From Promethearchaeati archaeon SRVP18_Atabeyarchaeia-1 (GTDB lineage: Archaea; Asgardarchaeota; Atabeyarchaeia; Atabeyarchaeales; Atabeyarchaeaceae): a DNA stretch of 64,000 bases. The notes beneath the pieces are model-generated. The model saw only the letters and a list, made by a program, of their open reading frames with translations, was not told the origin of the DNA and ran no database searches. The stretch covers positions 2,336,001-2,400,000 of the forward strand of contig CP147779.1 in assembly GCA_037308085.1 (NCBI GenBank), written 5' to 3'. The translations under genes were made by a program, and so were the position numbers. Position 1 is the stretch's first letter. The number at the start of each line of letters is the position of its first letter. Shown here one piece after another: positions 8,234 through 19,241 of the stretch.

Positions 8234-9544
8234 CTATTCCTTAGTCGCGATCTCCCATTCAACAGGTGTTATTTCCCTGAGGCATTGTTGGACTAACTGG
8301 TCGACGCCCAGATGTTTCTCGAGTTCCTCCACCACTTGAATGTCCCCCCGGATTTGCGGGTGATCCGGCACACCCCAGCACGGTAATAAGGTGATGGAGG
8401 CCGCGGGCGCGGTGCCGATCTGGCGTGCGAGCGCTACGACCTCCTCCTTGTCGAATCCAAACAAGGGGCGGTGCACCGGGATGGTAACCACGCTATTCAG
8501 GACCATGAGGTTTTGGGCGGTCTGACTAGCCTGCTCCCCGAGGATCTCCCCTGTCACGATCCCCTTCGCCCCGTACATGTGCGCAACCTGTTCCGCGACG
8601 CGATACATCATGCGCTTGCATAACAGACACGTCACGCCCGCCCGCGCCCCTTGGGACGTGAGGGCGGTCAGGACCTTGCCATAGGGCATCACGAAAACGA
8701 GCGGTTTCGCAGATTGGCCGCGCATGTATTCCACTATGACTGCTACTTCCTTCAAGGCATTTGAGCGCACGGATCCTTCGGACTCCCCACCGCTGGCCTC
8801 CTCCTGGGCCGGGTTCATTATGACGAAGATGAGGGGCGCGCCGCGGCGCATCGCCATCCACGCGGCGACCGGGGAGTCGAAGCCCCCGCTGACGAGGGCA
8901 ACCAATGGATCTTCCAGTCCCAATGGGAATCCCCCGGGCGCTTTAATCCGTTCCGCGGAGATAAAGGCCGCGTTCTCGAACACCTCGATCTCGAGCTGTT
9001 TCTCCCGCTGGCACGCCCACGGCCCCATGGTCCAGCGCTCTTCCGCCCGAAAGCGTTTCTTTGAAAGGTCCTTTTTCCCCTTGGCAGGGTCGTTTTCTTC
9101 TTGGGAAAATTTGTCGCACAAGGCGAGAATCTCTGCCTTCCACTGCTTTTCATCAACGGGGGAGGAATCGATGGCCCGAATGGCGATTTTTTTCGTGCGG
9201 GGGTATAACCCGTGGGCAAGCATGAGCTTGGCTGGTACGGTGCGCGTGGAGGTCTTGTCGCTCAGCGGCGTGTGGAAGCACGGAGAGATGGTAGAAATTC
9301 CAAAGGTCCGCCCGACGACGGAGACGATGGCGGGCACGTCCGCTTCGACCGGTTGCCGGGGCACGAGGTAATAGCGGCCGGGGCGCATGATAATTTGGAG
9401 GCGTTTGAGCATGTCCCCGTTCCCGGTCGCCGTGAAGGCGTTCTGGATGTTCCGCCGGAGCAATGACTCGAGTAGATCCTGCGTTTGGGGGGACTTGATC
9501 CCAAATTCACCGGTGAACCGAACGAGCACGCTATTGTAGATCAT
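8234..9544 (-). CDS. thiI: tRNA 4-thiouridine synthase ThiI
   Basis: VRFTGEFGIKS, PGGFPLG, PP-loop SGGFDSP, CLLCKRMMYR, TGEILGEQASQT, RPLFGFDKEE. Confidence 0.9.
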   Translation of the reverse strand: MIYNSVLVRFTGEFGIKSPQTQDLLESLLRRNIQNAFTATGNGDMLKRLQIIMRPGRYYLVPRQPVEADVPAIVSVVGRTFGISTISPCFHTPLSDKTSTRTVPAKLMLAHGLYPRTKKIAIRAIDSSPVDEKQWKAEILALCDKFSQEENDPAKGKKDLSKKRFRAEERWTMGPWACQREKQLEIEVFENAAFISAERIKAPGGFPLGLEDPLVALVSGGFDSPVAAWMAMRRGAPLIFVIMNPAQEEASGGESEGSVRSNALKEVAVIVEYMRGQSAKPLVFVMPYGKVLTALTSQGARAGVTCLLCKRMMYRVAEQVAHMYGAKGIVTGEILGEQASQTAQNLMVLNSVVTIPVHRPLFGFDKEEVVALARQIGTAPAASITLLPCWGVPDHPQIRGDIQVVEELEKHLGVDQLVQQCLREITPVEWEIATKE

Positions 9545-9769
9545 GATACCTATCCCTTAGGAGAATGAATCCTTTAAGTCCTTTGTGCTAAATGGCCCTT
9601 TTTGCGGCGGTTTTTGGGATCACTCTTCGGGTACCCATATTCATTTAGGTATGACCTGATGAAGAAACCGCAAAAGAACTTTCCGCGGTGGGGTCGAGCA
9701 TTGGAGTCCCCTGTCATCAAATGCTGGCAGAAGGCAAAAAAAAGAGGAAATGGAGGTTTTTAAAGTCCA

Positions 9770-9792
9770 CATACCTATGTCTTTAATACTTT
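9770..9792. repeat. 23-bp direct repeat, copy 1 (CATACCTATGyCTTTAATACTTT)
   Basis: One mismatch to 10099-10121; contains pseudo-palindrome CATA-CC-TATG next to an AT-rich TATA-like block. Confidence 0.75.
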
Positions 9793-10098
9793 ATCAGGCG
9801 AATCAAGGAAATCCGCGGGATGCGGTCTGAAATCATCGAGGATTTGGGCTGACGGCGCAAAGCAGTAACAGCTTTAGAGGACTTCCTGCAAGGGCGCGCA
9901 GAATTGAGTCTGCTAGACAATACTCCCTTTTTGATACCAACCTTGACGGCAGGCACAAATCCCGGATCCAAACACCGCGATTCTGTGGCGCAAAGCTACG
10001 TATTCTTCAATAGGGATCTAACTTACTAGGGGCGAGGAACGAACCAACCGGCCGTCTTGCGAAAACCAGACAAAAGAGGGGGGAGTTCTTGAAGAACG

Positions 10099-10121
10099 CA
10101 TACCTATGCCTTTAATACTTT
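10099..10121. repeat. 23-bp direct repeat, copy 2
   Basis: One mismatch to 9770-9792. Confidence 0.75.
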
Positions 10122-10167
10122 GTTGAGATCGGTGCTGTCACATCTGCGGTTGGCATGCTTTCATATG

Positions 10168-10340
10168 GAAGGTTCTTATGCGCACGCGTGACCTACCAAC
10201 CCCTCAAAGGGTGTTGGCTTCCTGGTTCATGGACCGAGCTTGCCTCGACGTGTGGCGGCCGTTGAGGCACCTCAGAGGCGCCGGGGTAGAGGCTTCGATC
10301 TCCGCAGGCGTAGATTCGGCGCGCACCATACCTATTGCCG
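10168..10340 (-). ncRNA. Putative TnpB omega-RNA (reRNA) scaffold plus flanking guide GCGUGCGCAUAAGAACCUUC; 5' end approximate
   Basis: Right-end sequence GCCTGCGGAG...CCTCTAC...GCAAG...ATGAACCAGGAAGCC...GGTAGGTCAC has the layout of IS605/IS1341 right-end RNAs; expression is inferred, not shown. Confidence 0.5.
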
Positions 10341-10418
10341 AGACCGATGCATGTTCCTCTATTTGAACCCGCGATTCACCCCACCCCTCAAAGGGTGTGG
10401 GCTTCCTGGCCCGCGTTC
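10188..10418 (-). mobile_element. Non-autonomous IS200/IS605-family element (PATE) with both ends and the 3' tail of tnpB
   Basis: Two copies of the subterminal hairpin CAGGAAGCC(A/C)ACACCCTTTGAGGGGT(T/G)GG; inserted 3' of TTAC (10422-10419); ends in TCAC (10191-10188); no target duplication; interior encodes IGMVRAESTPAEIEAST...QARSMNQEA, like TnpB C-terminal tails. Confidence 0.85.
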
Positions 10419-10480
10419 GTAACAGAACCTTGAGATCAGCACCTGCAGAGTCTGAGAAGCTATTTGGAGTCGTCGCGAAT

Positions 10481-11062
10481 TTGGCAAAGAAGAATTTTGG
10501 AAGCAAACCGCTTCTTCTCCCATTTCCAGTCACTATTGTGGGGGCAGAAGTTGATGGAAAACCTAACTTCATGGCGATCGGTTACATCGGGATAATCGAT
10601 GACACGCCATCGATGGTCGCACTGGGATCGCTGAAGACCCATTACACGAATAGAGGTATTATTGAGAACAAGACGTTCTCTGTAAACATACCTTCGGAAG
10701 AGATGATTCAGATCACTGACTACGTGGGGGTGGTTAGCGGAGAGAAGACAGACAAGTCGAAGCTATTTGATGTTTTCTACGGGAAGCTGAAGAATGCGCC
10801 GATGATACAGCAGTGTCCACTCAACCTTGAGTGCAAGGTTCTCGATATTCTGGAGAAAGGGGGTACGTACTACAACATCATTGGCGAGATTGTCGAATCT
10901 TACGTCGACGAGGAGTGCATGGTTGGCAAGTACCCGGACCTGGAGAAGGTGAAACCTATGGTCTTTTCGGTGGTTGGTGGCAAGTACTACTCAGTCGGGA
11001 AGTATCTTGGCGCGATGGGGAAAGCGAGCAAGGATTTCAAGTATAATGGCAGAGAACAGTAA
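10481..11062 (+). CDS. Flavin reductase / flavoredoxin family protein
   Basis: PFPVTIVGA, GKPNFMA, HYTNRGI, FSVNIPS, APMIQQCPLNLECKV; start moved to TTG 10481 because the longer ORF begins inside the mobile element. Confidence 0.88.
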   Translation: MAKKNFGSKPLLLPFPVTIVGAEVDGKPNFMAIGYIGIIDDTPSMVALGSLKTHYTNRGIIENKTFSVNIPSEEMIQITDYVGVVSGEKTDKSKLFDVFYGKLKNAPMIQQCPLNLECKVLDILEKGGTYYNIIGEIVESYVDEECMVGKYPDLEKVKPMVFSVVGGKYYSVGKYLGAMGKASKDFKYNGREQ

Positions 11063-11262
11063 ATCGTAGCTGCAGCTGCGCCGTTGCGACGCCAACCTTT
11101 AGCTTTGGCCCTTCGCCAATCCATGAATGAGTTCGGCTCAGATTCGGGTTCCAGTTGCCGAATGTGAGTGAGGGCTCATCCCCAATTGACCGTAAGCTGT
11201 AAATAAATCGTAGAGTCGTAGAGATTAACTAATCAAGCAAGAGCGATCCGGAGGCGTCGGGA

Positions 11263-12417
11263 ATGTTCAAATGCCCTCAGATATACTACGGAACCGGTTC
11301 ACTCGACAGGGTTGCATCCCTCAAGGGAGACCGCGTTCTAATAGTGACGGACAGGAAGATAGAGGAACTGGGACTGGTCGAAGAGGTGCGAAAGCGCCTG
11401 AAAGAGAAAGGCGCAGAAGTGCACGTTTTTGATGATGTGGAACCTGATCCGAAGGACTCGACCGTCGCCGCTTGTGCTAAGGTTGCGTCGGAGTTCAATC
11501 CTGATCTGATTATAGGACTCGGCGGGGGATCCTCGATGGATGTCGCTAAGGGTGCATTCTTTCAGTACGAGCGACCAGATGTCAAGCTCTGTGACATGAG
11601 TGCCTTGGAGAGCTATGGGCTAAGGAGGAAAGCGAGCTTGGCAATGATACCGACGACTTCAGGAACCGGCTCGGAGGCATCGGTTGGATGCGTAATAACT
11701 GATTCGGAAACAGGCAGGAAACTCTCTCTGGCGTGCTTCGAACTGACTCCTGACGTTGCAATCCTGGATCCGTCACTAGCCTTCAAGATGCCGCCCAAGC
11801 TAAGGGCGTGCACAGGAATTGATGTTCTCGTTCACGCGGTTGAGGCTTATGTTGCTAGTATGCACAATTTCTTCGCCGATGCGCTAGCCCTCAAGGCGAT
11901 TCAGACGGTGTTCCAGTACCTTGAGAAGTCCGTCAGGACGGGTGACCAAGAGGCTATGGAAAAGATGCACTATGCTGCAACTCTTGGAGGAATATCAATG
12001 ACCAACTCCGGCCTGGGCCTAGCACATGGAATAGGACACAGTATCGGGGCGCTCTTCCATATACCTCACGGAGCAGCAGTCGGCTTCGCCCTCCCTTACA
12101 TAATTGAGTTTTGTTCACAAACATCTAGGAATAGGTTCCTAGAAATACTTGGATCCCTCGGGGTCACCGGTGTTGATTCCGACAACGCGGCGAAGAGGCT
12201 TTCAAGCATTGTCAAGGAATTGATGATCAAGATTCAGATCCCACCAACACTGAAGGGCATAGGCGTCAGCGAAGACAAGTTCAGGAAGATGATACCCAAG
12301 CTCGTGGAGTTCTCGGAGAATGATGTCACGTCAATTACTAGCCCAAGAAACGCCACCACGGAAGACTTCCAGAAAATCCTAGAATACATGCTCAAGAACA
12401 AAACCGTCGACTTCTAG
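11263..12417 (+). CDS. Iron-containing alcohol dehydrogenase
   Basis: GLGGGSSMDVAK, PTTSGTGSE, GIDVLVHAVEAY, GLAHGIGH, HIPHG. Confidence 0.95.
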   Translation: MFKCPQIYYGTGSLDRVASLKGDRVLIVTDRKIEELGLVEEVRKRLKEKGAEVHVFDDVEPDPKDSTVAACAKVASEFNPDLIIGLGGGSSMDVAKGAFFQYERPDVKLCDMSALESYGLRRKASLAMIPTTSGTGSEASVGCVITDSETGRKLSLACFELTPDVAILDPSLAFKMPPKLRACTGIDVLVHAVEAYVASMHNFFADALALKAIQTVFQYLEKSVRTGDQEAMEKMHYAATLGGISMTNSGLGLAHGIGHSIGALFHIPHGAAVGFALPYIIEFCSQTSRNRFLEILGSLGVTGVDSDNAAKRLSSIVKELMIKIQIPPTLKGIGVSEDKFRKMIPKLVEFSENDVTSITSPRNATTEDFQKILEYMLKNKTVDF

Positions 12418-12519
12418 CGGGGGGGATCAGCCACACACTTACTTTCCTCTTCCCTTTCTTTGACGGCAACTATATCATCATTGTAGAATCAAATCAGTAT
12501 TCACGTTGGAAAGTGCGGA

Positions 12520-15456
12520 ATGCCACGTGGCAAAGTCGCTTTGAGAGTCTCTTCAAAAGTGGAATGGGCAAGGAGGCCGAAGGTTATGGCTCGAGTATCC
12601 AAGAATGTATCACGAATAGAAGGGTTCCCTTATCCGAAAGATGCTAAACTTGCAGGGAAGTTTCTCACTGACTTCTTCGAGCTGTTGGGTAAGAACAAGG
12701 AGATTCTGAGATCATGGGTGGAACTAAGAGCCCTGTTTCAGATCCACGTCGAGTCCCCTGAAGTCCTTGTGTCAATTGACACTCTAAGTGGAAAAGGCAT
12801 GCGAGTGTCTCTCGGAGAAGCCAAAGGAACTCCTAACGTGATCATGACTCTAAATGCTAATACATTTCATGAACTATATTCCGGCAAATTGAGCACTTTT
12901 CAGGCGTTCGGATCAGAAGCAGTGAGAACTGATGGCGACCGGAGTCTCGTAACAAGAATGACTAAGACTCTGCCACAGAGCATCAAGGCATATACGGATT
13001 ACTGCAAGGGGCTTGGGATTCATGTCGAATCGCTAGAGAGTGAAGCCACCTCCAAGGCAGCTTTGGAGGAGAGAGCCAAGGCCGTAACCCAAGGATCGCG
13101 AACCGAACGACTCAAGAAACTATTTCTACGTCGGCAGAGGGAGATCTGTGTCGAAAGAGCGCGTTACTACACAGAGTCGTACAGAAGTACTGAGGGAGAA
13201 CCAGCGGTTATTCGCCAAGCCAAGGCACTGAGAAACGTGCTTGACAATCTCCCAGTACACATCTACGAGGACGAGATGATAGTTGGCAACATTTCGAGCA
13301 AGCCTCTGGGAGCGGGGGTCTATCCTGAGACAGTGCTGGGTCCTAGAATAGAGGGCGAACTCAATAGGATAAGCCAAAGAAGCACAAACCCCTTCACCAT
13401 AGGTGCGGGAGAAAAGCGCGAACTCCAAGAGAGTATATTCCCCTATTGGCGGGGAAAAACCATCATCGACCTAGCTAGGAAGTATTGGTCCAAGGAAGTT
13501 GCCGATCTTTTTGACAGACTGGGAGTCTTCATTTTCACCGAGATTGGTGGCATAGGACATATGCTGATAAACCACGAGCGCGTTCTCAGAATCGGACTCA
13601 ACGGAATAATCGCGGAAGCTAACAGACGCAGAAAGGGGCTCCTGAAAGAGGACATGTCCGGAGATCCAGGGAAACAACAACAACTCGAATTCCTTGAAGC
13701 CGTTGAGATCGCGTGTAAGAGCGTGATCGACTTCGCAAGGAGATACGGCGGGCTAGCGGAAGAGCTTGCTGGAACCGAAAAAGATCCTGCGAGGCGTGGA
13801 GAACTCGAGGAGATCGCCAGAATATGTCTAAAGGTGCCAGAGAACCCAGCAGACACTATCCACGAATGCTTGCAGGCGATGTTCTTCACCCATATTGCAT
13901 GTCAAGTCGAGAGTTGGGAGTCAGCCATCTCAGTCGGAAGACTAGATCAGTTCCTAAAACCGTACTACGAGGCAGATCGACAAGCTGGAAGAACGGACGA
14001 AGTGAAAGCCCAAGAATTGTTTGAATGCTTCTTCTTGAAGCTTTCCTCGGTGATACCATTATTTGACGCGGATGCCTCCATAGCATTCGCCGGATTGACA
14101 GCCTTCGCAAATGTCGTCATTGGAGGAGTCGACAAGGATGGAAACGACGCTACAAATGATCTGTCCTATGTAATCCTGAATGCCGTGAAAAGGATGAAGA
14201 CCCCGCAGCCAAACTTTGGAATTCGAGTTCACGAGACTTCGCCCGAAAGACTTCTGACTGAGGTCTGCCGCGCTGCCTTAGAAATGGGAACTCTACCTCA
14301 TGTTTTCAACGACAGGTTGGTCATCAAGTCGATGGTCAACAGGGGGATACCGATAGAAGAGGCGAGAAATTACGGGATCATCGGCTGCGTAGAACCCGCC
14401 GTTCCAGGCAGGAGCTTCACCTCATCAGACGCGGCGCTCTTCAACCTTGGACTCTGCCTTGAACTCGCCTTGAACGATGGCAAAGCAAGATTGATGTCAG
14501 GGCAGATAGGACCACAGACGGGTAGCCCCGCGTCATTCACCTCGATGGAAGGCGTCTTGAATGCATTTGCCCAGCAGGTTCAGTACCTTATCAGGAAAAT
14601 GGTTGAAGGACTCGATGTACTAGCCAGAATCCATGCCGAGGTGAAGCCTACACCCTTGGCCTCATCATTGACCGATAATTGCCTAGCGAGCGGCAAAGAT
14701 CTCACCCGCGGGGGCGCAGTCTACAACTTCACCGGACCACAGGGAGTTGGACTCGCGACGGTTGCGGATTCGCTTGCGGCAATCGATCAACTTGTCTTCA
14801 GAGACAAGAAGGCAACCATGGATGAAATCTCGAAAGCTCTAAGTAAGAACTTCGCAGGTTACGAGCCACTAAGGCAGATGCTGATCAACTCGGCGCCGAA
14901 GTATGGGACGGATAACGACCTCGCGGATACATATGCCCGCCAAGTGGGCGAGATCTTCTGCAAGGAGATTGAGAAGTACCAAAACCCTAGAAATGGGCGG
15001 TATCAGCCGGGCTTGTACTCGGTGACGATGCACTTGACGTTTGGTATGCTGACAGGAGCACTGCCGAACGGGCGCAAAGCAAGCAAACCGCTGTCGTGCG
15101 GGGTAACACCCGAACCTGGAACAGCTTCTTTCGGACCGACTGCGCTGCTCAGGTCGGCGGCGAAGTTGAATTACGAGCTTGTGTCAAACGGCGCCGTGTT
15201 GGGTCTAAAGTTCAGTCCGAGCACGTTCCGCGGTGACGAGGGCCTACGAAATCTTGGATCTTTAGTTGAGTCCTTCTTCAGGCTCGGTGGAATGCATATC
15301 CAAGCCAACTTCGTAGGCCGCGAAACTCTACTCGCAGCGCAGAAGTGTCCTGACGAATATCGCGACCTAGTTGTTCGAGTTGCAGGATATAGCGCGCTGT
15401 TCACCGATCTCGACAGACTGGTACAGGATGAGATTATTGCGCGAACCGAATTCTAG
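12520..15456 (+). CDS. Glycyl radical enzyme (PFL2/PflD/dehydratase-like) with N-terminal SCP2-like domain
   Basis: ICVERA, RQAKAL, SVGRLDQFL, PQPN, GCVEP (14383-14397), GALPNGRKA, RVAGYS (15376-15393); extra N-terminal ~180 aa with an SCP2 pattern; start may be 12586. Confidence 0.9.
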   Translation: MPRGKVALRVSSKVEWARRPKVMARVSKNVSRIEGFPYPKDAKLAGKFLTDFFELLGKNKEILRSWVELRALFQIHVESPEVLVSIDTLSGKGMRVSLGEAKGTPNVIMTLNANTFHELYSGKLSTFQAFGSEAVRTDGDRSLVTRMTKTLPQSIKAYTDYCKGLGIHVESLESEATSKAALEERAKAVTQGSRTERLKKLFLRRQREICVERARYYTESYRSTEGEPAVIRQAKALRNVLDNLPVHIYEDEMIVGNISSKPLGAGVYPETVLGPRIEGELNRISQRSTNPFTIGAGEKRELQESIFPYWRGKTIIDLARKYWSKEVADLFDRLGVFIFTEIGGIGHMLINHERVLRIGLNGIIAEANRRRKGLLKEDMSGDPGKQQQLEFLEAVEIACKSVIDFARRYGGLAEELAGTEKDPARRGELEEIARICLKVPENPADTIHECLQAMFFTHIACQVESWESAISVGRLDQFLKPYYEADRQAGRTDEVKAQELFECFFLKLSSVIPLFDADASIAFAGLTAFANVVIGGVDKDGNDATNDLSYVILNAVKRMKTPQPNFGIRVHETSPERLLTEVCRAALEMGTLPHVFNDRLVIKSMVNRGIPIEEARNYGIIGCVEPAVPGRSFTSSDAALFNLGLCLELALNDGKARLMSGQIGPQTGSPASFTSMEGVLNAFAQQVQYLIRKMVEGLDVLARIHAEVKPTPLASSLTDNCLASGKDLTRGGAVYNFTGPQGVGLATVADSLAAIDQLVFRDKKATMDEISKALSKNFAGYEPLRQMLINSAPKYGTDNDLADTYARQVGEIFCKEIEKYQNPRNGRYQPGLYSVTMHLTFGMLTGALPNGRKASKPLSCGVTPEPGTASFGPTALLRSAAKLNYELVSNGAVLGLKFSPSTFRGDEGLRNLGSLVESFFRLGGMHIQANFVGRETLLAAQKCPDEYRDLVVRVAGYSALFTDLDRLVQDEIIARTEF

Positions 15457-15513
15457 CTCTCCCTGATGATCCTCTTTGAACCTTCAAATGATAACGAAGA
15501 GGGGCACAGATTC

Positions 15514-15861
15514 ATGAAGATCCGGCTGGAGGAGGGAAAGGTCAAGGACACGATCGAACATGTGGACAAACCTTCCTTCACCGTCCTTGACTTCATCGAA
15601 ATGTTCAAAGCTCTACATCCAGATGACTGGGATCAGCTTGCAAAGAGATTCGGTGGATTTGGCGAGAAACGGAGATATACGGTCAATACCTATTTCTCCA
15701 ATCGACTCGACGCGTACTCGCAAAAGCCTACCTCGCTTCTGGTTCCTTTTGTAAGGTACAAGCAGGGGGGATTCAATGACTATAGGAGGACGACGGAGGA
15801 GGAGAGGAAAGTCTTTGGTAGTCCTTGGATAGCCATGTTCAATAAGAGGGAAAAGGCGTGA
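15514..15861 (+). CDS. Hypothetical protein
   Basis: Clean ORF with GAGGGG upstream and protein-like composition. Confidence 0.6.
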   Translation: MKIRLEEGKVKDTIEHVDKPSFTVLDFIEMFKALHPDDWDQLAKRFGGFGEKRRYTVNTYFSNRLDAYSQKPTSLLVPFVRYKQGGFNDYRRTTEEERKVFGSPWIAMFNKREKA

Positions 15862-15878
15862 GTAGCTAGGACATGCAA

Positions 15879-18800
15879 TTACAGAGTTGTCACTTGAATC
15901 GGTACCGCGACGCCGATCATGGTCACATCGTACATGTCGTACATGATGGTGTAGAGCTTGCACCGTCCCTTGGCAGTAGCCAGTATATCTAGAACTATGC
16001 CACCATCGGTAAGGGGTTTTGAGATTGTCTGAATGTTTACACCGCCCTCGAGAAAAGCCATGTTTGCCGCTAGAAATACCTTCGCTATAGGACATATCGA
16101 GTGATCCTTTGGCACAAGTGATAGTTGTACTCGCTCCCCCAGCTTCAGTGTAGTCTTGGGAAGTTTTGCTTCGAAGTTGAACATGGACTTTATCTTCTTG
16201 TAGTCTATTGTTTCCACTCCATCGAGCCTGACTAGGAGCTTGGTGCCGGCCCGAAGTCTTCTGTTTTCAGATGATTGGTCGCTGCCAGCCTCGTCATCAA
16301 GCGCGATTGTTCTGGCTACATTCCGTGAATCCAACCCGTAGTCTTTCTCTGTCAGCGTGACTGCTCTTGTCGGATCATCTTTTGTATGCGTGAAGTAGGC
16401 GAATTTGGGCATACTATCGAAGCCCTCCATTGTGGCGAAGAGTTCGATTAGTGCGCGCGTATCAGCCGTAGAATTCAGCCTGCCTGCTACGAGCCTCTTG
16501 GCGACGAACTTGAATCCCTTCTTAAACAGCATCTGGTGTCTGACGTCATTCGAAGGGCCAAGCACACGAAGTGCCGTCGCTGTCGTCTCGAGACTTCCTC
16601 CCCAAGTCGATTGGGACGCTTCCCAGTGGACTTCACTTCCCCCTGCTCCTTCGATGGCTCTTGATTCGATCAGCTTGAGTGCATCCTTCCGCTTTCCCTT
16701 GTCGCCTACATGTAGCGCTATGTTTGCCGCGTCCTCCACAGTCGACATCGGAGCCGCGAACTTTTCATTGAGTGGGAGAAGTGCGTTATCATGTACGTCT
16801 CTCTTCACAAGTTCCTGTATCGGCCTCTCAACAAGTGGAGCCGTATCCATCTTGAACTTCTCTACCTCCATGAGGGGAGCGAGGTTCTTCAATACTTTTC
16901 TTGTGACGTCGGGAGAACCATCCTTGGCACCCTCCCAGAGGGAATACATGCCATCTTGCTGGAGGAACTTCGCCATTCTTGAGAGACCAGAACTGATCAT
17001 TTGTGTTATTTCCTGTGATGTTTCGCCGAATTTCCATGCGACGGCGAGTCCACACAGCTTTGCACTTGTCTGCTCGGCGCATCCATATGGATACTGAACA
17101 AGGGCTCTAACCGAATCTGTGAGTATCGCTTTCACAGATCCATACACGAAGACTCTCTTTCCAGCGCCGATCTGTAGCTCTTCATTCTCTTCCAGCATGC
17201 TGAGAGCGGAAACCGTTACTCGCTCACTAGCTTGTGCATTGACTTCTTTTGTCATCAGGTCGCTGCCAATCGTCGATGTTAGCTCGGCCTCGACAACCCC
17301 AGGTCCGGGCAGCTTGAAGTCCCTGATGCCGTCACCCTCGACTTCGCCTTCGTAGGAGCTTCCGTCAGGGAGCCTAATTCGCAGACTTCCTTTTCCTTCG
17401 GCAAGGTGGTAGATTGCTTTCCCATAGTATTCGTCGCCATAATCTATCATCGAAGGTATGTCTAAATCAACCACGACACTCTTGTCGGCTTCCACGCTGG
17501 CAGACTTTGAGATATAGTCGACGCCGGTGAATGCGTAGACTTGCACCTTCCAGCGTGTTATCGTGTCTCCGAGCTTGATGCGCTCCTCGTGAACACCATC
17601 CATCTCGATGAGCTTGTATGCTAGTAGCTTAGGGAACCAAGCTCTTCTTGGCGTTACAGTCATTGCCGCCTGCACCGTTGTGGTAATGACAGTTGTCAAT
17701 TTGTCTCTATCTGCCATGTTGTAAGCGCCGACACCCACGGCCATCAGTTTCGCCGGGGTGGGTGATCTGGCAGAAAATGAAGGTGGTGGCGCGGCCATCT
17801 TTGCCATTGGTGCACCCGCGGCCATCATGTGAGCCAAGGGACGTACCGCTTCTTCTGCTTCAACCTCATGTACCTCTTTGCGTTCGATGAATTGCTCCAT
17901 CAGCTCCTGGATGCTTGGAAGCGCCCGTAAATGGTTGTAGATGTCTTTTCCGAGCTTTCCTGTAATATTCTCGGTGTCGAGTCTCTCGTCGAATACCATG
18001 AGAAGGCACTCAGCCTTTCTGTTTGATTCGAGAGTTATCGTCACCTCTTCGCCTGGCTCCGCTTTCTCAGGAGCCCTGATCTGCAGTTTGAGAGTCTCGG
18101 GGTGAAACACGACACTTCTCCCTTCAAACAAAGTGCTCTCATCGGCGTTGATCATGCATCCGACGAAGACAATCTGGTATGGAGCGCTATTATCAAACGA
18201 TAATTCTAGACCCTCTTTTGCAGAAGCCTTAGATGCTTGCCTAGCCTCACCGGTGAAGGGGTTAACGGTGTATACTGAGAGGTAGTCGAGGTTTCTAGTC
18301 ACCTGAACCTCGATCTTCTCCGACTCGGCGTTCCTGACTATGACAGGCGTCGTCGAGGCACCTCGTGGTGCCCAGTTGATCCCGCGAAGACTCCTCCCAT
18401 CAGGAATCGGGACTAGCGCCATATTCACGATCTCACCCAGGTTGCCGACCTGGATCTCCTGGCGTTCCTCGACTCTTGTGGACTGAAGCGTGACGGAAGC
18501 TGTGTTCCCGTCCGGAGTGGAGAATTCCAGTCTGAACGGTCCAGTGTGTCCACTTAGGCGCCATTGGAACCCAAGCGATCCGTTTTTGGCGTCGAAGGAC
18601 TTCTCCTCAACGACGACTTTGCAAAACTCGCAGTATAGTCCGATTCTAACGGAACCAGTGTAGGGCTGGTTGAGAACAGTCATCTCGAACTCCGCATCTA
18701 GGGCGTCACCACTGATAACTTGCTTCTTGATCTGGGCCAGCATGGGGCTGAGGGTGTGCTGGGCTATTGTGAAGTCACAGCTGAAGGTCTTCCTCTCCGC

Positions 18801-19241
18801 CTCAGTTGCCTTGCCAATCTTCCGCTCTGACGTAGTGGTTACTGCCGCAGTGTATTCACCCGTTTCCTCCGCGCCTCTTAGCTCATAGACATATACTCCA
18901 TAGTCGTCGAGCGTGAAGTCGTCGCTCGTCATAGCACGCTTGCCTGCAAACATGACCTCCAAGTGGGCAGTGTTGCGCCCACAGCCCGGCGATGCAATAA
19001 GCAGCCTCACGACGTCACCAGGATTGTAGACTCTCCTGTCCGATACGACTGCACCGAAGGCAAGAGGACCAATCTTGGCGGGCGCATAGGTCTGCCCCTT
19101 GATCTTCAGATCCTTGCCTAGCTCCCCTATTCTCGGGTATATGACCCGATCATCCAGGTCATAAATGAAATAATGCCCGACCTTAACTCCTTTCGCTGCA
19201 CCACCACTTTCTCTCAACAGTATCACGCTCCGCATTATCAC
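15879..19241 (-). CDS. Alpha-2-macroglobulin-family thioester protein
   Basis: SDRRVYNPGDVV (MG2-like), LDDYGVY, A/M/P-rich bait-like segment, RAWFP, DTITRWKV, YPYGCAEQT (GCAEQ at 17070-17084), GMYSLW, LETTATAL, NSTADT. Confidence 0.88.
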   Translation of the reverse strand: MIMRSVILLRESGGAAKGVKVGHYFIYDLDDRVIYPRIGELGKDLKIKGQTYAPAKIGPLAFGAVVSDRRVYNPGDVVRLLIASPGCGRNTAHLEVMFAGKRAMTSDDFTLDDYGVYVYELRGAEETGEYTAAVTTTSERKIGKATEAERKTFSCDFTIAQHTLSPMLAQIKKQVISGDALDAEFEMTVLNQPYTGSVRIGLYCEFCKVVVEEKSFDAKNGSLGFQWRLSGHTGPFRLEFSTPDGNTASVTLQSTRVEERQEIQVGNLGEIVNMALVPIPDGRSLRGINWAPRGASTTPVIVRNAESEKIEVQVTRNLDYLSVYTVNPFTGEARQASKASAKEGLELSFDNSAPYQIVFVGCMINADESTLFEGRSVVFHPETLKLQIRAPEKAEPGEEVTITLESNRKAECLLMVFDERLDTENITGKLGKDIYNHLRALPSIQELMEQFIERKEVHEVEAEEAVRPLAHMMAAGAPMAKMAAPPPSFSARSPTPAKLMAVGVGAYNMADRDKLTTVITTTVQAAMTVTPRRAWFPKLLAYKLIEMDGVHEERIKLGDTITRWKVQVYAFTGVDYISKSASVEADKSVVVDLDIPSMIDYGDEYYGKAIYHLAEGKGSLRIRLPDGSSYEGEVEGDGIRDFKLPGPGVVEAELTSTIGSDLMTKEVNAQASERVTVSALSMLEENEELQIGAGKRVFVYGSVKAILTDSVRALVQYPYGCAEQTSAKLCGLAVAWKFGETSQEITQMISSGLSRMAKFLQQDGMYSLWEGAKDGSPDVTRKVLKNLAPLMEVEKFKMDTAPLVERPIQELVKRDVHDNALLPLNEKFAAPMSTVEDAANIALHVGDKGKRKDALKLIESRAIEGAGGSEVHWEASQSTWGGSLETTATALRVLGPSNDVRHQMLFKKGFKFVAKRLVAGRLNSTADTRALIELFATMEGFDSMPKFAYFTHTKDDPTRAVTLTEKDYGLDSRNVARTIALDDEAGSDQSSENRRLRAGTKLLVRLDGVETIDYKKIKSMFNFEAKLPKTTLKLGERVQLSLVPKDHSICPIAKVFLAANMAFLEGGVNIQTISKPLTDGGIVLDILATAKGRCKLYTIMYDMYDVTMIGVAVPIQVTTL

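What the first reader, a model, noticed from the sequence alone, without database searches (positions are those of the whole stretch)
10481..15456. SCP2 lipid-binding domain fused to a glycyl radical enzyme, downstream of an Fe-ADH and a flavoredoxin
Seen: residues ~45-160 read like SCP2 (VSLGEAKGTPNVIMTLNANTFHELYSGKLSTFQAFGSEAVRTDGD), ahead of a complete GRE with GCVEP and RVAGYS. No radical-SAM activase lies in the window. Known: GCVE(P) marks eliminase/dehydratase and PflD-like GREs rather than true PFL (CC); these often pair with an ADH that reduces the aldehyde product; SCP2 binds acyl chains, sterols and isoprenoids. Inference: a radical enzyme acting on a hydrophobic substrate such as a long-chain diol, glycerol-ether lipid or alkane, which may be new GRE chemistry.
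Basis: partly seen in the sequence, partly recalled or inferred. Interest (0 to 1): 0.75.

Follow-up and report, generated by a model that had tools for sequence, protein, structure and literature searches.

The report
SCP2-domain glycyl radical enzyme, uncharacterised clade
An Asgard archaeon encodes a radical enzyme of the diol-dehydratase type that carries a lipid-carrier (SCP2) domain at its front end; this is one member of a large, widespread enzyme group whose substrate nobody has tested.

Summary
ORF 12520-15456 (+; 978 aa, probable start at M23 = 12586) has an N-terminal SCP2 domain, a PFL-like barrel and a glycyl-radical domain. The SCP2 fold is backed by profile hits to solved SCP2 domains. 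The ESM Atlas's own model agrees (TM 0.70-0.72). An Fe-ADH lies directly upstream and there is no activase in the window.

The genome is an Atabeyarchaeia (Asgard) chromosome.

The fusion is not rare. Of the 120 best GRE-domain relatives, 93 carry SCP2, mostly Chloroflexota MAGs plus a few Asgard. All 101 strong long-protein hits to this SCP2 subtype are GREs.

The catalytic set of glycerol dehydratase (Cys433, Glu435, His164, Asp447, Tyr640, Gly763) is kept in 119 of 119 family members. The distal pocket is less polar (H281S, S282A, Y339F, Q340A, S642V).

Best reading: a 1,2-eliminase acting on an amphipathic substrate, with its aldehyde product handled by the Fe-ADH. A role as alkylsuccinate synthase is unlikely.

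The SCP2 domain has been lost several times without any active-site change, so it is accessory.

I found no paper on this fusion. The scan's first readers noted the same fusion in a sister genome. The substrate is unknown.

The parts
12520..15456 (+). SCP2-GRE fusion gene (978-aa ORF). The probable true start is ATG at 12586, giving 956 aa.
   Evidence: The start is judged from the alignment with orthologues and from the NCBI gene call.
12625..13032 (+). SCP2-like lipid-carrier domain (residues 36-171 of the 978-aa ORF, which are residues 14-149 of the 956-aa form)
   Evidence: Pfam SCP2 E 4.5e-6, above the gathering score. Family profiles hit solved SCP2 domains: 1ikt/8af3 at E 3e-6 and 4uei at E 5e-7. 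The ESM Atlas model of residues 14-149 superposes on SCP2 clusters at TM 0.70-0.72.
13033..13098 (+). Variable linker rich in Glu, Ala, Ser and Lys, between the SCP2 domain and the GRE
   Evidence: This stretch is poorly conserved in alignments A2 and A3. It lies between the Pfam domains.
13099..15045 (+). PFL-like ten-stranded barrel (residues 194-842). It holds His347, the ESWESA stretch at 464-469 (Glu467, Ser468, Ala469), Phe529, the Cys loop and Tyr833/Val835.
   Evidence: Pfam PF02901 E 1.3e-203. Residues were mapped to C. butyricum glycerol dehydratase.
14383..14397 (+). Cys loop GCVEP: catalytic Cys623 and Glu625 of the CXE motif. Asp637 follows at 14428-14430.
   Evidence: The meaning of the CXE motif is taken from PMC13450708.
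15097..15402 (+). Glycyl radical domain, with RVAGYS at 15376-15393 and the radical Gly956
   Evidence: Pfam PF01228 E 1.1e-26. The fingerprint RVxG[FWY]x6-8[FL]x4Qx2[IV]x2R (PMC13450708) is matched by the sequence.
11263..12417 (+). Fe-dependent alcohol dehydrogenase, the probable partner that handles the aldehyde product
   Evidence: Pfam. An orthologue at 66-69% identity lies directly upstream of the GRE in L022, L023 and L024, and Fe-ADHs also lie upstream in L030. The best solved relatives are AdhE ADH domains, methanol DH, 1,3-propanediol oxidoreductase and lactaldehyde reductase.
10397..11062 (+). Flavin-reductase-like (flavoredoxin-type) ORF. It is a neighbour only in this genome, so its membership in the system is doubtful.
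   Evidence: Pfam PF01613. tblastn found no homologue in L022-L024.
15466..15861 (+). 131-aa ORF with no Pfam or NCBIfam match and no cysteines. It is probably not part of the system.
   Evidence: Its homologue lies on the opposite strand in L023 and L024, and the ORF in that position in L022 is unrelated.

Best explanation
The gene encodes a glycyl radical enzyme of the 1,2-eliminase (diol-dehydratase-like) kind with an accessory N-terminal SCP2 lipid-carrier domain. What is shown: the SCP2 fold; the GRE fold; the glycine fingerprint; the catalytic Cys; the CXE Glu; and the His, Asp and Tyr that glycerol dehydratase uses. What is inferred is the mechanism. One of the two distant activases installs the glycyl radical. 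Cys623 then abstracts H from the carbinol carbon of a substrate with a vicinal OH or O-linked leaving group. Glu625 deprotonates the hydroxyl and His347 protonates the leaving group. The resulting aldehyde is reduced or oxidised by the adjacent Fe-ADH. Also inferred: the less polar distal pocket (Ser468, Ala469, Phe529, Ala530, Val835) together with the SCP2 domain points to an amphipathic substrate. Its hydrophobic tail or leaving group would be held or delivered by SCP2.
For: The subfamily model TIGR01774 is passed at 776 bits against a cut-off of 678, and no equivalog model is passed. The closest solved relatives are glycerol dehydratase 1r8w (E 9.9e-195), 9rco, diol dehydratase 5i2a and A. 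fulgidus PFL2 2f3o. Identity to C. butyricum GDH is 40%. The residues matching GDH Cys433, Glu435, His164, Asp447, Tyr640 and Gly763 are kept in 119 of 119 family rows. The substitutions are near-invariant: H281S in 114 of 119, S282A in 117, Y339F in 113 and S642V in 119. The roles of Glu435 and His164 are taken from PMC13450708. An Fe-ADH lies directly upstream in 5 of 5 loci, the same gene pairing as the C. butyricum dha operon of GRE, activase and Fe-ADH. This SCP2 subtype was found only on GREs among long proteins: 101 of 102 hits carry PF02901 plus PF02036, and the other hit is a truncated GRE. 22 positions of the N-domain are invariant across 10 diverse members.
Against: The SCP2 domain is dispensable in some lineages. 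25 of 119 rows lack it, at a minimum of 7 places on the tree, yet they keep the same active-site signature. A same-genus genome has the syntenic gene with the domain deleted and no other match to this N-domain at E <= 1e-10. The Fe-ADH looks like short-chain alcohol dehydrogenases, which fits a small aldehyde. Two invariant extra glutamates (Glu341, Glu467) are unexplained and could point to a polar or cationic group. The Fe-ADH neighbourhood evidence comes from one family-level lineage only. No RNA data were available.
Confidence: 0.5

Rival explanations
1. It is an ordinary small-molecule diol dehydratase, acting on a substrate like 1,2-propanediol or glycerol. The aldehyde is reduced by the Fe-ADH. 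The SCP2 domain does not carry the substrate and serves instead for membrane tethering, oligomerisation, gating or regulation.
For: The full diol-dehydratase catalytic set is present. Phe at GDH-339 and Val at GDH-642 are also what the propanediol dehydratase 5i2a shows in the alignment. The Fe-ADH resembles AdhE-type, FucO and DhaT enzymes. The domain has been lost repeatedly with an unchanged active site.
Against: His281/Ser282 of both solved diol dehydratases are replaced by Ser/Ala in 114-117 of 119 rows, and two new invariant Glu appear. No equivalog model is passed. This SCP2 subtype is tied to this GRE clade only and is well conserved. Stand-alone copies also exist, which suggests a ligand-related role that can act in trans.
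Confidence: 0.25
2. It is an alkyl- or arylalkyl-succinate synthase-like enzyme that adds a hydrocarbon to fumarate, with SCP2 holding the alkane. This has been proposed in the literature for PflD-like GREs of A. fulgidus, Chloroflexi and Asgard archaea.
For: Such proposals appear in passages of 10.1101/400804 and PMC8163825. The review PMC13450708 calls the function of A. fulgidus PFL2 debated between glycerol dehydratase and MASS. Our enzyme shares local motifs with 2f3o (FTSSD, E..AIS, TEI.GI.H). SCP2 would suit a hydrophobic substrate.
Against: It lies much further from solved BSS (E 1.6e-90) and MASS (E 1.8e-85) than from dehydratases (E 1e-194). It keeps the CXE Glu and the His and Asp of eliminases. 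At the offset of the fumarate-binding Arg (BSS Cys493 to Arg508, +15) it has Asp and Ala (Cys623 +14 and +15). No small Fe-S beta or gamma subunit gene lies nearby, and the only small downstream ORF has no cysteine. The conserved partner is an ADH.
Confidence: 0.05
3. It is a GRE isomerase or another CXE-type chemistry. One example is ring-opening C-O cleavage as in E. coli YbiW and PflD. Another is C-N or C-S elimination from an amphipathic amino- or sulfo-alcohol.
For: The CXE motif is also kept by the isomerases (PMC13450708). The two extra invariant Glu could bind an amine. YbiW and PflD structures are significant relatives (8yjo E 2e-149, 8id7 E 1.6e-133).
Against: It is closer to GDH and diol dehydratase. 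No Arg/Gln sulfonate-binding set was seen at the positions examined. There is no sugar-phosphate context in the neighbourhood.
Confidence: 0.1

Closest known systems
B12-independent glycerol dehydratase DhaB1 of Clostridium butyricum (PDB 1r8w/1r9d)
   Same: It is the best solved relative (E 9.9e-195) at 40% identity. It has the same Cys, CXE Glu, His164, Asp447, Tyr640 and Gly. It also sits in an operon with an Fe-ADH.
   Different: GDH has no SCP2 domain and its activase is adjacent. His281, Ser282, Tyr339, Gln340, Trp445, His446 and Ser642 of GDH are Ser, Ala, Phe, Ala, Ser, Ser and Val here. Asn156 and Gly280 are Glu here.
1,2-propanediol dehydratase of Roseburia inulinivorans (PDB 5i2a/5i2g)
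   Same: It is a CXE eliminase. The alignment shows Phe and Val at the GDH-339 and GDH-642 positions, as here.
   Different: It keeps GHSIS where this family has E-S-A-I-S. It has no SCP2 domain. My recollection that the bacterial enzyme is associated with a microcompartment comes from no call.
Archaeoglobus fulgidus PFL2/PflD (PDB 2f3o), function debated
   Same: It is an archaeal single-Cys GRE. It shares the local motifs TEI.GI.H, E-x-A-I-S and SFTSSDAAL (E 2e-175). Its function is likewise unknown (PMC13450708).
   Different: It has no SCP2 domain (776 aa). It has Asn/Gln at GDH-339/340 and Met at GDH-642 where this family has Phe/Ala and Val.
SCP2 domains attached to enzymes (MFE-2 SCP2-like domain 1ikt, SCPx thiolase-SCP2 4uei, alkyl-sulfatase C-terminal domain)
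   Same: The same fold is found by sequence profile and by predicted structure. The idea that it is an accessory domain on an enzyme with hydrophobic substrates is recalled, not from a call.
   Different: Here the domain is N-terminal and fused to a radical enzyme. I found no report of such an architecture. Ligand binding is untested.

Membership tests
Glycyl radical enzyme superfamily | C-terminal fingerprint RVxG[FWY]x6-8[FL]x4Qx2[IV]x2R with the radical Gly (PMC13450708) | tested here: met
   RVAGYSALFTDLDRLVQDEIIAR at residues 953-975. Pfam Gly_radical E 1.1e-26.
Glycyl radical enzyme superfamily | PFL-like barrel with a catalytic Cys on the Cys loop | tested here: met
   PF02901 E 1.3e-203. 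Cys623 aligns with GDH Cys433.
Glycyl radical enzyme superfamily | A radical-SAM activating enzyme is available | tested here: met
   Two activases score above the TIGR02494 cut-off in the genome, at 2478502-2479362 and 1424926-1425681. Neither is in the window or next to this gene.
GRE 1,2-eliminases (C-O cleaving) | [quoted passage not shown] | tested here: met
   C623-V-E625, kept in 119 of 119 family rows.
GRE 1,2-eliminases (C-O cleaving) | The acid that protonates the leaving group (GDH His164), plus Asp447 (its role is recalled) | tested here: met
   His347 and Asp637, each kept in 119 of 119 rows.
GRE 1,2-eliminases (C-O cleaving) | Forms an aldehyde from a vicinal diol or beta-substituted alcohol | not testable with these tools
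   This needs an anaerobic enzyme assay.
B12-independent glycerol dehydratase (as an equivalog) | The polar pocket for glycerol (His281, Ser282, Tyr339 in GDH; their roles are recalled) | tested here: not met
   These positions are Ser, Ala and Phe here. Only the subfamily model TIGR01774 is passed.
Pyruvate formate-lyase proper | Two adjacent Cys on the Cys loop, and the TIGR01255 cut-off | tested here: not met
   The loop reads G-C-V-E. TIGR01255 scores 155 bits against a cut-off of 994.
X-succinate synthases (BSS, MASS) | Active-site Arg that binds fumarate (BSS Arg508, MASS Arg492; PMC12358834) | tested here: inconclusive
   Judged by offset from the Cys only: +14 and +15 are Asp637 and Ala638. 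I had no BSS or MASS sequence to align directly.
X-succinate synthases (BSS, MASS) | Small Fe-S accessory subunits encoded alongside | tested here: not met
   There is no Cys-rich small ORF beside the gene, and the 131-aa downstream ORF has no Cys. The neighbours are ADH, ThiI and A2M-like genes.
SCP2 (PF02036) | Score above the Pfam gathering cut-off | tested here: met
   27.4 bits against 21.3 here. 46.7 bits in the sister genome.
SCP2 (PF02036) | SCP2 alpha/beta fold | tested here: met
   The Atlas model of residues 14-149 superposes on SCP2 clusters at TM 0.70-0.72 by query and 0.79-0.84 by target. Profile hits to solved SCP2 domains. Both sides of the structural match are predicted models.
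SCP2 (PF02036) | Binds a lipid in a hydrophobic tunnel | not testable with these tools
HypD, CutC, HpsG/HpfG, IAD, HPAD equivalogs | NCBIfam equivalog cut-offs | tested here: not met
   The best equivalog scores are 605 bits (NF048009, cut-off 1000) and 590 bits (HypD, cut-off 1100).

The most novel reading that the evidence does not exclude
The SCP2-GRE clade is an anaerobic lyase for glycerol-ether or other vicinal-diol lipids. It would use glycerol-dehydratase chemistry on the glycerol head of a 1-O-alkylglycerol, an archaeol-type lipid or a long-chain 1,2-diol. The leaving group would be water or the alkoxide. The lipid chain would sit in the opened, apolar distal pocket and in the SCP2 tunnel. 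The short aldehyde would be passed to the Fe-ADH. That would be the first oxygen-independent route for breaking down ether lipids in anoxic sediments, used by Chloroflexota and some Asgard archaea.
Probability: 0.1. Interest if true: 0.9.

Novelty: new variant of a known kind. Interest (0 to 1): 0.6.

Why it matters
GREs carry out hard anaerobic chemistry. The 2026 review states that whole clades, and all archaeal PFL-like GREs, lack a proven function (PMC13450708). This clade is large. It has a fixed active-site signature of its own, part of which it shares with the long-debated A. fulgidus PFL2. It also carries a built-in lipid-carrier domain, which gives a concrete and testable hint about its substrate class. 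Genes of this wider PflD-like group are currently counted in metagenome studies either as 'alkylsuccinate synthases' or as 'pyruvate formate-lyase'. The residues seen here argue against both labels, which affects carbon-cycle inferences for sediments and wetlands.

Tried and rejected
I relied on PDB profile searches and on the ESM Atlas's own model.

Bacterial context therefore stays unknown.

3. Expression: no RNA holder was listed, and read laying was not run. The supplements of PMC11291895, which may hold expression values for 'pflD', are closed.

4. A riboswitch or other RNA upstream: there were 0 Rfam matches at E <= 0.1 in 9000-16500.

5. A direct alignment to an X-succinate synthase: I looked for one in the plasmid collection. 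The only candidate, the Novosphingobium plasmid GRE in L031, is not an XSS. Its best solved relative is glycerol dehydratase and it has no CXE. The Arg test therefore rests on offset only.

6. The flavoredoxin and the 131-aa ORF as parts of the system were rejected. The first has no homologue in L022-L024. The second lies on the other strand in L023 and L024 and is unrelated in L022.

7. My first impression that the fusion is rare (7 clusters) was wrong. That search was limited by shared words, and searches corrected it.

8. Two papers could not be read because they are not held: PMC4992073 and PMC4957038. What I say of them is recalled or taken from citing papers.

9. Tree caveats. It is FastTree only. 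Rows P0054 (700 aa) and P0055 (631 aa) were dropped as short. 'Unfused' was defined as no A2-HMM hit at E < 1e-20, so some unfused rows may be truncated gene calls: P0138 holds half a domain, and P0086, P0111 and P0122 are candidates. The robust losses are the 17-row clade, P0052/P0053 (checked on DNA in L030) and P0078/P0131.

Full report
WHAT IS THERE

The window is G000:C1:2336001-2400000 of a single-contig genome of 2.81 Mb. On the + strand lie four ORFs in a row:
- a flavin-reductase-like ORF at 10397-11062,
- an Fe-ADH at 11263-12417,
- a 978-aa ORF at 12520-15456,
- a 131-aa ORF at 15466-15861.

These four are flanked on the - strand by ThiI (8234-9544) and an alpha-2-macroglobulin-like gene (15879-19241).

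Pfam reads the long ORF as SCP2 (residues 68-151, E 4.5e-6, above the gathering score), PFL-like (194-842, E 1.3e-203) and Gly_radical (860-961). NCBIfam passes only the subfamily model TIGR01774 (776 bits, cut-off 678). No equivalog is passed: HypD scores 590 of 1100, CutC 550 of 1050 and true PFL 155 of 994.

Orthologues and the NCBI gene call begin at M23, so the protein is probably 956 aa and starts at 12586.

No activase lies in the window. The genome has two above cut-off, one orphan at 2478478-2479404 and one beside another GRE.

IS THE N-TERMINUS REALLY SCP2?

Yes, by three lines of evidence.
- Pfam: 27.4 bits here and 46.7 bits in the sister genome.
- Sequence profiles: a profile of seven orthologous N-termini hits the solved SCP2-like domain of MFE-2 at E 3e-6, over 89 of about 120 residues. 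A broader profile of ten diverse members hits SCPx/SCP2 4uei at E 5e-7 and mammalian SCP2 at 5e-5.
- Predicted structure: the ESM Atlas holds its own model of this protein (pLDDT 0.85). Residues 14-149 superpose on SCP2-domain clusters at TM 0.70-0.72.

WHOSE GENOME, AND HOW COMMON IS THE FUSION?

The one related locus found in reference genomes is 'Candidatus Atabeyarchaeum deiterrae, Atabeyarchaeia-2' (CP147780.1). The window genome belongs to the same family, a wetland Asgard lineage (PMC11291895, abstract in the listing and passages). The DNA occurs in wetland and freshwater-sediment metagenomes of 2 studies, two samples of which may be the source.

A first, word-limited search suggested only 7 fused clusters. 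That was misleading.
- With the GRE part as query, 93 of the 120 best clusters carry PF02036.
- An HMM of the N-domain finds the N-termini of all of these at 1e-36 to 1e-44.
- With a diverse N-domain profile against long proteins, 102 proteins scored E <= 1e-5. Of these, 101 carry PFL-like plus SCP2. The last, P0200, is a GRE cut inside the domain at a contig end.

This SCP2 subtype therefore occurs, among long proteins, only on GREs. Source names that are given are Dehalococcoidia, Anaerolinea(e), Odinarchaeota, Hodarchaeota and Promethearchaeota MAGs. The Atlas adds clusters of similar length, mostly from Thermodesulfobacteriota, but this is a lead only.

Within the Asgard phylum only 4 of 400 genomes, G000 included, have the domain at E <= 1e-10. 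Stand-alone proteins of 126-137 aa with the same signature also exist.

GAIN AND LOSS

I built a FastTree of 119 family rows plus the genome's four other GREs as outgroup. Two short rows had been dropped. The fused state appears from the deepest branch (P0018) through all major clades. The 25 unfused rows sit in at least 7 places and include a well-supported 17-row clade.

One loss can be seen on DNA. G003, which has the same genus code, holds the syntenic locus MBL - SDR - Fe-ADH - Fe-ADH - GRE. Its GRE is 830 aa and keeps 'TSRRDQFLYPD' and the linker end 'PRSKRLKK', but nothing in between. G003 has no other match to the domain at E <= 1e-10. The domain is therefore ancestral to the clade, accessory, and dispensable in some hosts.

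ACTIVE SITE

The best solved relatives are B12-independent glycerol dehydratase 1r8w (E 9.9e-195), 9rco, diol dehydratase 5i2a and A. fulgidus PFL2 2f3o. BSS (1.6e-90) and MASS (1.8e-85) are far behind.

I fetched the C. butyricum dha operon (GRE, activase, Fe-ADH) and aligned its dehydratase at 40% identity. The mapping agrees with HMMER's alignment.
- Kept in 119 of 119 family rows: Cys433, Glu435, His164, Asp447, Tyr640 and Gly763.
- Changed: Asn156 to Glu (119 of 119), Gly280 to Glu (110), His281 to Ser (114), Ser282 to Ala (117), Tyr339 to Phe (113), Gln340 to Ala (112), Trp445/His446 to Ser/Ser (118 each) and Ser642 to Val (119).

According to the review, Glu435 deprotonates the C1-OH and His164 protonates the leaving C2-OH, and the CXE motif marks eliminases and isomerases. 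Phe and Val at positions 339 and 642 are also seen in the propanediol dehydratase row. Glu at 156 and 280, Ala at 282 and the 'FTSSD' stretch are shared with A. fulgidus PFL2, whose function has been debated for two decades.

Fused and unfused rows have the same signature.

NEIGHBOURS

An orthologue of the Fe-ADH (66-69% identity) lies directly upstream of the GRE in L022, L023 and L024, with a second paralogue (56-59%) before it. L030 has two as well. That makes 5 of 5 loci, but all come from one family-level lineage, so the support is weak.

The best solved relatives of the ADH are AdhE ADH domains, methanol DH, 1,3-propanediol oxidoreductase and lactaldehyde reductase. It is 33% identical to the C. 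butyricum DhaT-position ADH.

The flavoredoxin is not conserved. The 131-aa ORF is on the other strand in L023 and L024 and has no counterpart in L022. No riboswitch was found.

HOW IT MOST LIKELY WORKS

Shown: a complete GRE with eliminase-type catalytic residues and a genuine SCP2 domain, with activases present elsewhere in the genome.

Inferred: it catalyses radical 1,2-elimination at a carbinol carbon next to an O-linked leaving group. The aldehyde goes to the Fe-ADH. The apolar distal pocket and the SCP2 domain serve a hydrophobic part of the substrate.

The main rival is an ordinary small-diol dehydratase whose SCP2 domain has another job. This rival gains from the short-chain look of the ADH and from the repeated loss of the domain. 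One variant reconciles both observations: the lipid is the leaving group (ether cleavage), which would leave a small aldehyde.

The succinate-synthase reading found in metagenome papers is unlikely, for these reasons:
- the CXE/His/Asp set is present;
- there is no Arg at the BSS-Arg508 offset;
- there are no small Fe-S subunits nearby;
- similarity to BSS and MASS is low.

NOVELTY

Searches found nothing relevant in 8.1 million PMC papers plus bioRxiv: 'SCP2' with 'glycyl radical' (3 papers, 2 listed, both irrelevant), 'sterol carrier' with 'glycyl radical' (1 irrelevant paper) and 'SCP-2' with 'pyruvate formate' (0 papers). The 2026 GRE review does not contain 'SCP2', 'sterol carrier' or 'fusion'. 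Subscription journals are not covered.

The architecture is visible in public Pfam pre-computations, so it is undescribed rather than unseen. Earlier first-reader notes of this scan flagged the same fusion in this genome and in the sister genome; they are not independent evidence.

VERDICT

This is a real and conserved member of a large, uncharacterised SCP2-GRE clade, and a new variant of a known kind. Its interest is moderate to high as an enzymology target. The claim of new chemistry is open, not shown.

Noticed in passing
G000:C1:1422523-1425699 (outside the window), and the whole genome: The genome has five single-Cys GREs and no true pyruvate formate-lyase. TIGR01255 scores at best 159 bits against a cut-off of 994, and all Cys loops read G-C, none C-C. 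One GRE passes the HypD equivalog (1307 bits, cut-off 1100) and has its own activase beside it. The published reconstruction reads 'pflD' as PFL producing formate (PMC11291895, passages). These scores do not support that reading.
   Followed up: partly
L028 (G077:C157) 895-1338, - strand: A single 148-aa frame joins a piece of the SCP2-like N-domain directly to the C-terminal part of a GRE activase. It looks like a deletion remnant of an adjacent SCP2-GRE and activase gene pair, or a mis-assembly. If real, the activase once lay next to the fused GRE in that Asgard lineage.
   Followed up: partly
L030 (G003:C8) 9369-11861: A same-genus genome carries the syntenic GRE with the SCP2 core removed in frame. 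The first residues of the domain and the linker end remain. This is a natural domain-deletion control.
   Followed up: yes
P0019-P0022 (metagenome proteins, 126-137 aa): These are stand-alone proteins with the same N-domain signature (FPY......Y.(D/E)YL..KG) that end where the linker starts. They may be split forms that partner unfused GREs. Their gene context could not be fetched.
   Followed up: no
window 12520-15456, residues Glu341 and Glu467: Two acidic residues are invariant or nearly so in the family (119 and 110 of 119 rows) at the positions of GDH Asn156 and Gly280. A. fulgidus PFL2 shares them. Their role is unexplained.
   Followed up: no
L023 4424-6381, - strand: In a related metagenome contig, a URO-D-like methyltransferase and a corrinoid-binding protein, plus an SDR, lie just upstream of the two Fe-ADHs and the GRE. 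An SDR is also present in L030. The window has none of these.
   Followed up: no
L031 (Novosphingobium sp. PP1Y plasmid Mpl) 3947-6442: An unannotated 831-aa GRE-like ORF lies on a plasmid of a bacterium that I recall, from no call, as an aerobic aromatic degrader. It lacks the CXE motif, and its best solved relative is glycerol dehydratase at E 1.8e-111.
   Followed up: no
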